Shown: positions 5,895 to 6,280 of the stretch, one piece after another
Layout of the letters: every line of letters begins with the position of its first letter
Position numbering within the stretch: the stretch's first letter is position 1
DNA from: Escherichia coli
GTDB lineage: Bacteria; Pseudomonadota; Gammaproteobacteria; Enterobacterales; Enterobacteriaceae
Reading direction: 5' to 3' (one strand)
NCBI RefSeq assembly: GCF_024700885.2
Contig: NZ_CP117016.1
Length of the DNA stretch: 64,000 nucleotides
Notes under the pieces: generated by a model
What the model was told of the DNA's origin: nothing
The model's input: only the letters and a program-made list of their open reading frames with translations
Databases searched by the model: none
Translations under genes and position numbers: made by a program

Positions 5895-6280
5895 TAATAG
5901 TATCCTTATAAATTTCTGAGTTGTTCAAATAAATGTTATCATATATTTTTATCAACGTAATATGTATTTTTACGTATTTTTAACTGTGAGAGATACATAG
6001 TGATTGTTGGGTGCATGTACAATCCTTGATACTTAACAATGAAAGCGTAGTTGTGGGGGGGGGGCATATTTGGGGGCATTACTATTTAATCTTTCTTGAT
6101 TTTTATTATAAAACAACTGGTTGTATTGATGTTTTGTTCCTATTATCGCACCATTTAAATCAAGTAGTTACCTCACATTCAATTACACCACATTTTCCTC
6201 CTGTGCCGTATTTGTGCCATTGTAACCCTGGCAATTCATCAAAATACTGTTCTGACATCAGGCAGTGCAGGTGCAGACAT

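What the first reader, a model, noticed from the sequence alone, without database searches (positions are those of the whole stretch)
6055..6064. G10 homopolymer tract in AT-rich DNA at the element edge
A run of ten G followed by TTTGGGGG lies in the non-coding region between the 3-TM gene and the LysR fragment. Such tracts are slippage-prone and unusual in E. coli intergenic DNA; it may mark a junction or an assembly artefact.
Basis: seen in the sequence. Interest (0 to 1): 0.2.

Follow-up and report, generated by a model that had tools for sequence, protein, structure and literature searches.

The report
Stretched G-run in integrase arm site
The ten-G run is real, but it is the normal five-G core of a known integrase docking repeat at the right end of a P4-like phage satellite, lengthened by replication slippage, so it is an ordinary and probably harmless feature.

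Summary
The G10 run at 6055-6064 exists and is the only G or C run longer than 7 in the 64 kb window. It lies 74 bp inside the right end of a 12.2 kb P4-like satellite integrated at tRNA-Thr (thrW). The satellite carries a retron St85/Sen2-type system and a RipA/8xMP membrane protein as cargo.

The run belongs to a direct repeat, GGGGGCAT-N4-GGGGGCAT, with a 12-bp period. This repeat matches the "attP arm sequence repeat" annotated in phage P4 in sequence, spacing and distance from the att core. The int side of the same element has a second pair plus an inverted copy abutting the int ATG, as in P4.

In eleven thrW satellites with unrelated cargo the pair is always present. The motif changes together with the integrase clade: all five copies read GGGGGCA in one clade and GGGGGTA in the other.

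Every other element has G4-G5 in the first copy. In the retron/RipA lineage the first copy has G5, G6, G9, G10 (18 assemblies) or G11. The extra G sit on the outer side, so the motif and its register to the core are unchanged.

The run is not an assembly artefact and not the chromosome junction. It is an already known kind of feature and of low interest.

The parts
6055..6064 (+). The G10 homopolymer. It is the G5 core of the distal far-arm repeat plus five extra G on the outer (cargo-side) edge.
   Evidence: The alignment of six genomes shows G5/G5/G6/G9/G10/G11 at this position. Elements with other cargo have G4-G5 here.
6053..6069 (+). Distal arm-type repeat of the far (attR-side) arm. The ancestral 12-mer GTGGGGGCATAT is lengthened here to 17 bp. 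It is homologous to P4 GTGGGGGCACAA.
   Evidence: The P4 record annotates 12-bp 'attP arm sequence repeat' features, read out. The position is conserved in 11 satellites and P4.
6070..6081 (+). Proximal arm-type repeat TTGGGGGCATTA, 12 bp after the distal one. It is homologous to P4 AAGGGGGCATAT.
6111..6123 (+). IHF-consensus-like site AAACAACTGGTTG (one mismatch to WATCAANNNNTTR) between the arm pair and the core.
   Evidence: The site is at the same offset in all elements compared and in P4, with perfect matches in L008, L009 and L010. The CA....TT columns are conserved. This is a consensus match only; binding was not tested.
6138..6153 (+). attR core TCCTATTATC-GCACCA, a copy of the 3' end of thrW lacking one G. 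This is the right boundary of the satellite.
   Evidence: thrW sequence. Core positions in eight loci. Matches from most other genomes, including sites annotated with tRNA-Thr, begin at window 6130-6138 (query 251-259).
5412..5894 (-). ripA / 8xMP membrane-protein gene, the last cargo gene. It is transcribed away from the spacer that holds the tract.
   Evidence: Pfam PF24838, E = 1.5e-28. RefSeq name. The best promoter-like hexamers lie at about 5920-5955, roughly 100 bp from the tract.
3296..5417 (+). Retron St85/Sen2-type (type II-A) cargo: msr 3296-3365, msd-like region 3368-3486, NDT-like effector 3530-4498 and RT 4485-5417.
   Evidence: Rfam msr, 53.4 bits against a gathering score of 52. 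PADLOC NDT_II-A E = 2e-79 and RT_II-A E = 7e-123. NCBIfam retron St85 effector and RT, both above cut-off.
1..2706 (+). Satellite backbone visible in the window: the 3' end of the TOPRIM/DUF927 primase gene (to 736), a Sid-like Psu-family gene (1137-1880), psu (1877-2428) and ogr/delta (2425-2706).
   Evidence: Pfam Psu and Ogr_Delta. RefSeq annotation of the identical strain 1190 region.
6281..6496 (-). LysR-family fragment; chromosomal flank to the right of attR.
   Evidence: Pfam LysR_substrate, E = 5e-9. The fragment is present next to thrW in an empty site and matched in 3277 of 5426 genomes.

Best explanation
The G10 tract is the five-G core of the outermost arm-type integrase-binding repeat in the attR-side arm of a P4-family satellite integrated at thrW, lengthened by five G through replication slippage. 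In the excised circle, the pair GGGGGCAT-N4-GGGGGCAT (far arm), an IHF-like bend site, the 16-bp tRNA-Thr core, a second pair, and an inverted copy abutting the int ATG together make up attP. The N-terminal arm-binding domain of the element's tyrosine integrase is expected to bind these repeats while its catalytic domain binds the core. The bound complex would be a lambda/P4-type intasome, used for integration and, with an AlpA/Vis-type factor, for excision. The extra G were added on the outer side of the outermost repeat. The GGGGGCAT motif, its 12-bp register to the second repeat and its distance to the core are therefore all unchanged, which would explain why the expansion is tolerated. What is shown: the homology of sequence and geometry to the annotated P4 arm repeats, the covariation of motif with integrase clade, the length polymorphism, and the position relative to the core. 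What is inferred: Int binding at these copies, the intasome architecture, and the neutrality of the expansion.
For: (1) The P4 record annotates 12-bp attP arm repeats in the layout seen here. It has a far-arm pair GTGGGGGCACAA|AAGGGGGCATAT 53 bp from the core, an int-arm pair 112 bp from the core, and an inverted copy over the int ATG. The thrW satellite has a far-arm pair about 56 bp from its core, an int-arm pair about 113 bp from it, and ATGTGCCCCCAA directly before the int ATG. (2) Covariation: elements L007 and L008 (Int 94% identical) have GGGGGCA in all five copies. L009 and L010 (Int 70-72% identical to L007) have GGGGGTA in all five copies. (3) All four integrases have Pfam Arm-DNA-bind_3 (E about 1e-28), and the L007 Int is 43% identical to P4 Int over its full length (E = 3e-112). 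(4) In 11 satellites plus P4, invariant columns are confined to the two repeats, a CA....TT (IHF-like) element and the core. DNA to the left of the first repeat is unrelated between elements with different cargo. (5) Tract lengths are G5, G5, G6, G9, G10 (x18 plus the window) and G11 in the retron/RipA lineage, and G4-G5 in every other element. G5 is therefore ancestral, and the added bases lie on the distal side. (6) P4 Int is reported to bind DNA directly near the int transcription start and to repress its own gene (Piazzolla et al. 2006, as summarised in PMC2951348). This matches the inverted copy at the int ATG.
Against: Int binding to these particular copies was not tested and cannot be with these tools. 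The primary P4 papers on the arm repeats (Pierson and Kahn 1987; Cali et al. 2004; Piazzolla et al. 2006) are not in the held library. Their content is known to me only from memory, from the P4 GenBank annotation and from a secondary citation. Neutrality of the expansion is an inference: if Int or an accessory protein contacts the two bases 5' of the G5, or DNA further out, the five extra G could weaken the distal site. The 20 genomes with G9-G11 are about 100% identical over 9 kb, chromosomal flank included. They may therefore be one clone in which the element has not needed to move, so persistence of G10 does not prove the element is still mobile. The 8-mer GGGGGCAT alone is not enriched in the window (3 found, 2.8 expected). 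The case rests on position, pairing and comparative data.
Confidence: 0.85

Rival explanations
1. The tract is a phase-variation (contingency) switch. Slippage in the C10/G10 run would change expression of the adjacent ripA membrane-protein gene, or of the retron cargo, by altering promoter geometry.
For: The tract length does vary between genomes. The tract lies upstream of the divergently oriented ripA gene, in its 5' intergenic region.
Against: The tract is 161-170 bp upstream of the ripA start codon. No sigma-70-like hexamer pair flanks it in the standard scan. In my relaxed scan the best candidates lie at about 5920-5955, roughly 100 bp away. The tract is not in any ORF with support; the ORFs spanning it have no family match. 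Within the one lineage that has the long tract, 18 of 20 assemblies agree on G10, which does not look like an actively switching locus. The same G-run position exists as G4-G5 next to unrelated cargo, so the run belongs to the att arm, not to ripA.
Confidence: 0.04
2. The tract is a sequencing or assembly artefact (homopolymer miscall) and the true sequence is the canonical G5.
For: Homopolymers are error-prone on several platforms. Two near-identical genomes differ by one G (G9 and G11), which is the kind of difference such errors produce.
Against: Eighteen independent complete assemblies from different countries, hosts and submitters agree exactly on G10 within a 411-bp, 100% identical stretch. 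The closely related elements in HS30-1 and 52F4 give G6 and G5, so assemblers do not inflate this site systematically.
Confidence: 0.03
3. The expansion has a functional effect on mobility. Five extra G at the distal arm site would change Int or accessory-protein binding, or the DNA path, altering excision and integration frequency and perhaps locking in a defence-carrying satellite.
For: The expanded allele is confined to one lineage in which element and flank are about 100% identical across 20 genomes. This is compatible with purely vertical inheritance after the expansion. The distal arm site is the outermost protein-binding element of attR.
Against: The motif itself, its 12-bp register to the second copy and its distance to the IHF-like site and core are unchanged. 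The two positions 5' of the G5 differ among the arm repeats (GT, AA and TT in P4; various bases in the other satellites), which suggests little sequence-specific contact there. There are no data on excision.
Confidence: 0.08

Closest known systems
Phage P4 attP arm sequence repeats (arm-type Int binding sites; annotated in NC_001609)
   Same: Same motif (GGGGGCAY within a 12-mer), same 12-bp tandem period and same number and orientation of copies: two on the far arm, two direct plus one inverted on the int arm, the inverted one over the int start. The distances to the core are nearly the same (53 vs about 56 bp and 112 vs about 113 bp). The integrase is homologous (43% identity) and has the same arm-binding domain.
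   Different: The core is the 3' end of tRNA-Thr (thrW), whereas the P4 core sequence is different (GAGTCCGGCCTTCGGCACCA). The far arm abuts the cargo hotspot here, but the crr/alpha region in P4, and the gene order differs. The first far-arm copy carries G10 where P4 has G5.
Lambda-type heterobivalent integrase attP (P/P' arm sites with IHF bends)
   Same: The general logic is the same: arm-type sites distinct from core sites, on both sides of the core, with a host bending-protein site between arm and core (PMC9791396 and PMC4880445 abstracts; IHF-like site).
   Different: The motif and the number and layout of sites differ. No Xis/Fis sites are identified here, and the candidate directionality factor is an AlpA/Vis-type HTH (marginal score).
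Homopolymer contingency loci (phase-variable poly-G/poly-C tracts)
   Same: A long G/C run whose length differs between closely related genomes.
   Different: The tract is not inside a coding sequence or a promoter spacer. It is stable at G10 in 18 of 20 genomes of its lineage.
P4-like satellite defence hotspot (Rousset et al. 2022, PMC9122126)
   Same: A P4-like element with interchangeable defence cargo (retron, DRT3, SIR2, DprA, AAA+S8) downstream of psu/delta (paper).
   Different: In that paper the hotspot lies between psu and int, adjacent to cos. Here, in the prophage, the cargo lies between ogr/delta and attR, so in the circular form the att site separates cargo from int. No P4-type cos was detected by my crude search.

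Membership tests
P4-type attP arm repeats (arm-type Int sites) | 12-bp-period tandem pair of the GGGGGCAY motif on the arm distal to int, about 50-60 bp from the core | tested here: met
   Window 6053-6081, 56 bp before the core at 6138. P4: 4151-4174, 53 bp from its core.
P4-type attP arm repeats (arm-type Int sites) | Matching pair plus an inverted copy on the int-proximal arm, with the inverted copy overlapping the int start | tested here: met
   The copies lie outside the window but are in the identical strain 1190 element: L007 5149 and 5161 (direct), and 5187-5198 ATGTGCCCCCAA directly before the int ATG at 5199.
P4-type attP arm repeats (arm-type Int sites) | Cognate P4-family tyrosine integrase with an N-terminal arm-binding domain | tested here: met
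   Pfam Arm-DNA-bind_3 E = 8e-28, Phage_int_M and Phage_integrase. 43% identity to P4 Int, E = 3e-112.
P4-type attP arm repeats (arm-type Int sites) | Motif tracks integrase specificity (concerted change of all copies) | tested here: met
   GGGGGCA in all copies with the L007/L008 Int clade. GGGGGTA in all copies with the L009/L010 clade.
P4-type attP arm repeats (arm-type Int sites) | Physical binding of Int to the repeats and a requirement for them in recombination | not testable with these tools
   EMSA, footprinting and recombination assays are needed. There is only indirect literature support for P4.
P4-like phage satellite | Core genes int, alpA-like, alpha primase, sid, delta and psu in one roughly 10-12 kb element at a tRNA gene | tested here: met
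   RefSeq annotation of L007. Pfam Psu (x2), Ogr_Delta and a marginal Phage_AlpA match at 21.6 bits against a cut-off of 21. attL/attR cores from thrW.
P4-like phage satellite | P2/P4-type cos site | tested here: inconclusive
   There is no significant blastn match to the P4 cos region and no 19-mer within 5 mismatches in window 1-7000. This was a crude test, and the helper and cos type are unknown.
Phase-variable homopolymer (contingency locus) | Tract lies within a coding sequence or between the -35 and -10 elements of a promoter | tested here: not met
   The tract is intergenic, 161 bp upstream of the ripA start. No flanking promoter hexamers were found.
Phase-variable homopolymer (contingency locus) | Frequent length switching within a clone | tested here: inconclusive
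   18 of 20 near-identical genomes have G10, one has G9 and one has G11. Real slippage and sequencing error cannot be separated without reads.

The most novel reading that the evidence does not exclude
The length of the G tract in the outermost arm site may tune or disable Int-mediated excision. Slippage at an integrase arm repeat would then act as a heritable switch that fixes a defence-carrying satellite in the chromosome, or releases it.
Probability: 0.06. Interest if true: 0.4.

Novelty: already known. Interest (0 to 1): 0.12.

Why it matters
This result matters little beyond annotation. It shows that an odd-looking poly-G run is the expanded core of a P4-type integrase arm repeat. The satellite's right boundary can therefore be placed exactly: arm pair at 6053-6081, attR core at 6138-6153. 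The run also marks where the interchangeable defence cargo ends. The clean covariation of arm motif with integrase clade (GGGGGCA or GGGGGTA) among thrW satellites is a small, useful by-product. It could help predict att arms and Int specificity for P4-like satellites, and it offers a natural G5/G6/G10 allelic series for testing how tolerant arm sites are to flank insertions.

Tried and rejected
(1) Promoter or phase-variation role. The standard promoter/terminator scan and my relaxed hexamer scan of the minus strand found nothing spanning the tract, so I rejected this.

(2) A link to the retron (msDNA, branching G). Rfam places msr at 3296-3365, about 2.7 kb away and upstream of the operon. 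The tract is also present next to unrelated cargo, so I rejected this.

(3) A tRNA gene in the window. ARAGORN finds none. attR holds only the last 16 bases of thrW.

(4) Recurrence of expanded first repeats elsewhere. Most of the nine are G+C-rich and lie in unrelated contexts. Three related contigs (G8, G8, G9) have no P4-like integrase or tRNA in the DNA held, so they could not be counted as att arms.

(5) cos site. None was found.

(6) Literature on RipA/8xMP. The searches returned only RIPA buffer and unrelated hits. The primary P4 Int/Vis paper is not held.

(7) Canonical G-quadruplex. By inspection, G10 plus G5 supplies only three G3 runs. I did not pursue this.

Full report
**Observation.** The + strand reads GTTGT-GGGGGGGGGG-CATATTTGGGGGCATTAC, with the ten G at exactly 6055-6064. 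No other G or C run in the 64 kb exceeds 7. Dinucleotide-preserving shuffles give 0.07 such runs per window, and 5 of 100 shuffles contain at least one.

**Context.**
- The region to the left of the tract is the right-hand part of a mobile element. The window is identical to E. coli strain 1190 up to position 9047, and two other genomes match positions 1-9000 with the same full score.
- In strain 1190 the whole element is 12.2 kb. Its order is proA, thrW (tRNA-Thr), tyrosine integrase, a hypothetical gene, a small HTH (marginal AlpA match), icd-like, the TOPRIM/DUF927 primase, a Sid-like Psu-family gene, psu, ogr/delta, cargo, attR, and then the LysR fragment. It is therefore a P4-like satellite.
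- The cargo is a retron of the St85/Sen2 type II-A family plus one further gene. The retron parts are msr at 3296-3365 (Rfam, above the gathering score), an msd-like region, an NDT-like effector and the RT. The further gene is convergent and encodes an 8xMP/RipA membrane protein at 5412-5894.
- thrW ends in ...CTCCTATTATCGGCACCA. The window has TCCTATTATC-GCACCA at 6138-6153, which is attR. An empty site shows thrW directly followed by the same LysR fragment. Matches from most of the 3277 other genomes begin at about 6130-6138.
- The tract is therefore 74 bp inside the element, not at the chromosome junction.

**What the tract is part of.** The run is the first half of a direct repeat, GGGGGCAT at 6060-6067 and again at 6072-6079, 12 bp apart. 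On the other side of the element, between thrW and int, strain 1190 has GGGGGCAC and (A)GGGGCAT, also 12 bp apart. It also has an inverted copy, ATGTGCCCCCAA, directly before the int ATG. The GenBank record of phage P4 annotates this arrangement as "attP arm sequence repeat":
- a far-arm pair, GTGGGGGCACAA|AAGGGGGCATAT, 53 bp from the core;
- an int-arm pair, TTGGGGGCATAA|TTGGGGGCATCT, 112 bp from the core;
- an inverted TTGGGGGCACAT over the int start.

The corresponding distances in the thrW satellite are about 56 and about 113 bp. Its integrase has the Pfam arm-binding domain and is 43% identical to P4 Int over its full length.

**Comparative test.**
- I collected eleven thrW satellites with unrelated cargo: retron+RipA in four variants, DprA, DRT3 in two, AAA+S8 peptidase, SIR2, and two with hypothetical genes. 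Every one has the far-arm pair at the same distance from the core.
- DNA to the left of the first repeat is unrelated between elements with different cargo. In an alignment that includes P4, invariant columns are confined to the two repeats, a CA....TT element that matches the IHF consensus at a fixed offset, and the core.
- The motif changes in concert. The two elements whose integrases are 94% identical have GGGGGCA in all five copies. The two whose integrases are only 70-72% identical to those have GGGGGTA in all five copies.
- This covariation between both arms and the integrase clade is what arm-type recognition sites should show, and what chance or plain shared ancestry would not.
- The 8-mer alone is not enriched in the window (3 found, 2.8 expected). 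The argument rests on position, pairing and covariation.

**Tract length.**
- 23 complete E. coli genomes carry this junction. Eighteen are 100% identical over 411 bp and so have G10. One has G11, one G9, one G6 (HS30-1) and two G5 (52F4 and the more divergent SY038).
- All other satellites, and P4, have G4-G5 in this copy. G5 is therefore ancestral and the long run is a derived expansion.
- The 20 genomes with G9-G11 are about 100% identical over 9 kb, chromosomal flank included. HS30-1 and 52F4 carry the same element at 99.4-99.6% identity in a different flank. The expansion therefore looks like a single recent event in one lineage, with plus or minus one changes that may be real slippage or consensus errors.
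- G10 itself is not an assembly artefact, because 18 independent assemblies agree.

**Mechanism.** By homology with P4 and the general heterobivalent-integrase model, the repeats are expected to bind the N-terminal domain of Int. The intervening IHF-like site would bend the DNA so that the arm-bound Int reaches the core. The inverted copy at the int start would give autorepression, as reported for P4. These steps are inferred, not shown here. The extra G lie on the outer edge of the outermost site. The motif, its register to the second copy and the distance to the core are all unchanged. The two bases 5' of the G5 vary among the arm repeats of P4 and of the other satellites. I therefore consider the expansion most likely neutral, but this is the weakest link in the argument.

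**Rivals.**
- A phase-variable promoter for ripA is not supported. The tract is 161 bp upstream of the start codon and about 100 bp from the best promoter-like hexamers. The G-run position also exists next to unrelated cargo.
- An artefact is excluded for G10.
- An effect on mobility cannot be excluded. It is the most novel reading, and I give it a probability of about 0.06-0.08.

**Comparison with the known, and verdict.** The feature meets every sequence-level criterion of a P4-type attP arm repeat (see the membership table). Only physical binding is untested. Slippage in a G run is ordinary. That boundary is cargo to att arm, not element to chromosome. Novelty: already known. Interest: low.

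Noticed in passing
window 5412-5894 (minus strand), with 3296-5417: The RipA/8xMP membrane-protein gene is convergent with the retron St85-type RT gene and overlaps its end by 6 bp. It travels with the retron in all four element variants seen, including the divergent SY038 copy. It has no PADLOC or NCBIfam hit. It could be a third retron-associated component or a separate defence gene.
   Followed up: partly
L142 about 6375-6540 (E. coli A287, DRT3-carrying thrW satellite): About 18 tandem copies of the 9-bp unit CCCATGCTT end roughly 40 bp before the far-arm repeat pair, at the same cargo/att-arm boundary where the window has G10. The related DRT3 element in PEC1003 lacks the array.
   Followed up: no
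window 6138-6153 and the same site in L003, L004, L009, L010, L143, L144, L141: The attR copy of the thrW 3' end lacks one G (ATCGGCACCA becomes ATCG-CACCA) in most genomes. It is intact in SY038, TK3887 and A287, and further shortened (ATCA--CCA) in PCP07014.
   Followed up: partly
L006 2442-2517 (strain EC1, empty thrW site): The thrW allele at the unoccupied site differs from the allele in lysogens by a compensatory pair in the T stem (GAGG...CCTC against TAGG...CCTA), although its right chromosomal flank matches the window at 98.7%.
   Followed up: no
window 2707-3295: No P2/P4-type cos sequence was found between ogr/delta and the retron, although published P4-like hotspots are adjacent to cos. 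The gene order also differs from P4: all genes are co-oriented with int, and the cargo abuts the far arm of att.
   Followed up: partly
L012 4660, L014 12465, L015 about 3186-3209 (IMG/VR contigs): Three related viral contigs carry ATATAC-G8/G8/G9-CATAATCGGGGGCAC, a similar pair with an expanded, length-variable first G run. No P4-like integrase or tRNA is present in the DNA held.
   Followed up: partly
window 3368-3486: The msd-side region of the retron matches the Rfam family STnc400 (a Salmonella sRNA family) at 53 bits, below its gathering score of 80. This is consistent with the element being a Sen2/St85-type retron ncRNA.
   Followed up: no
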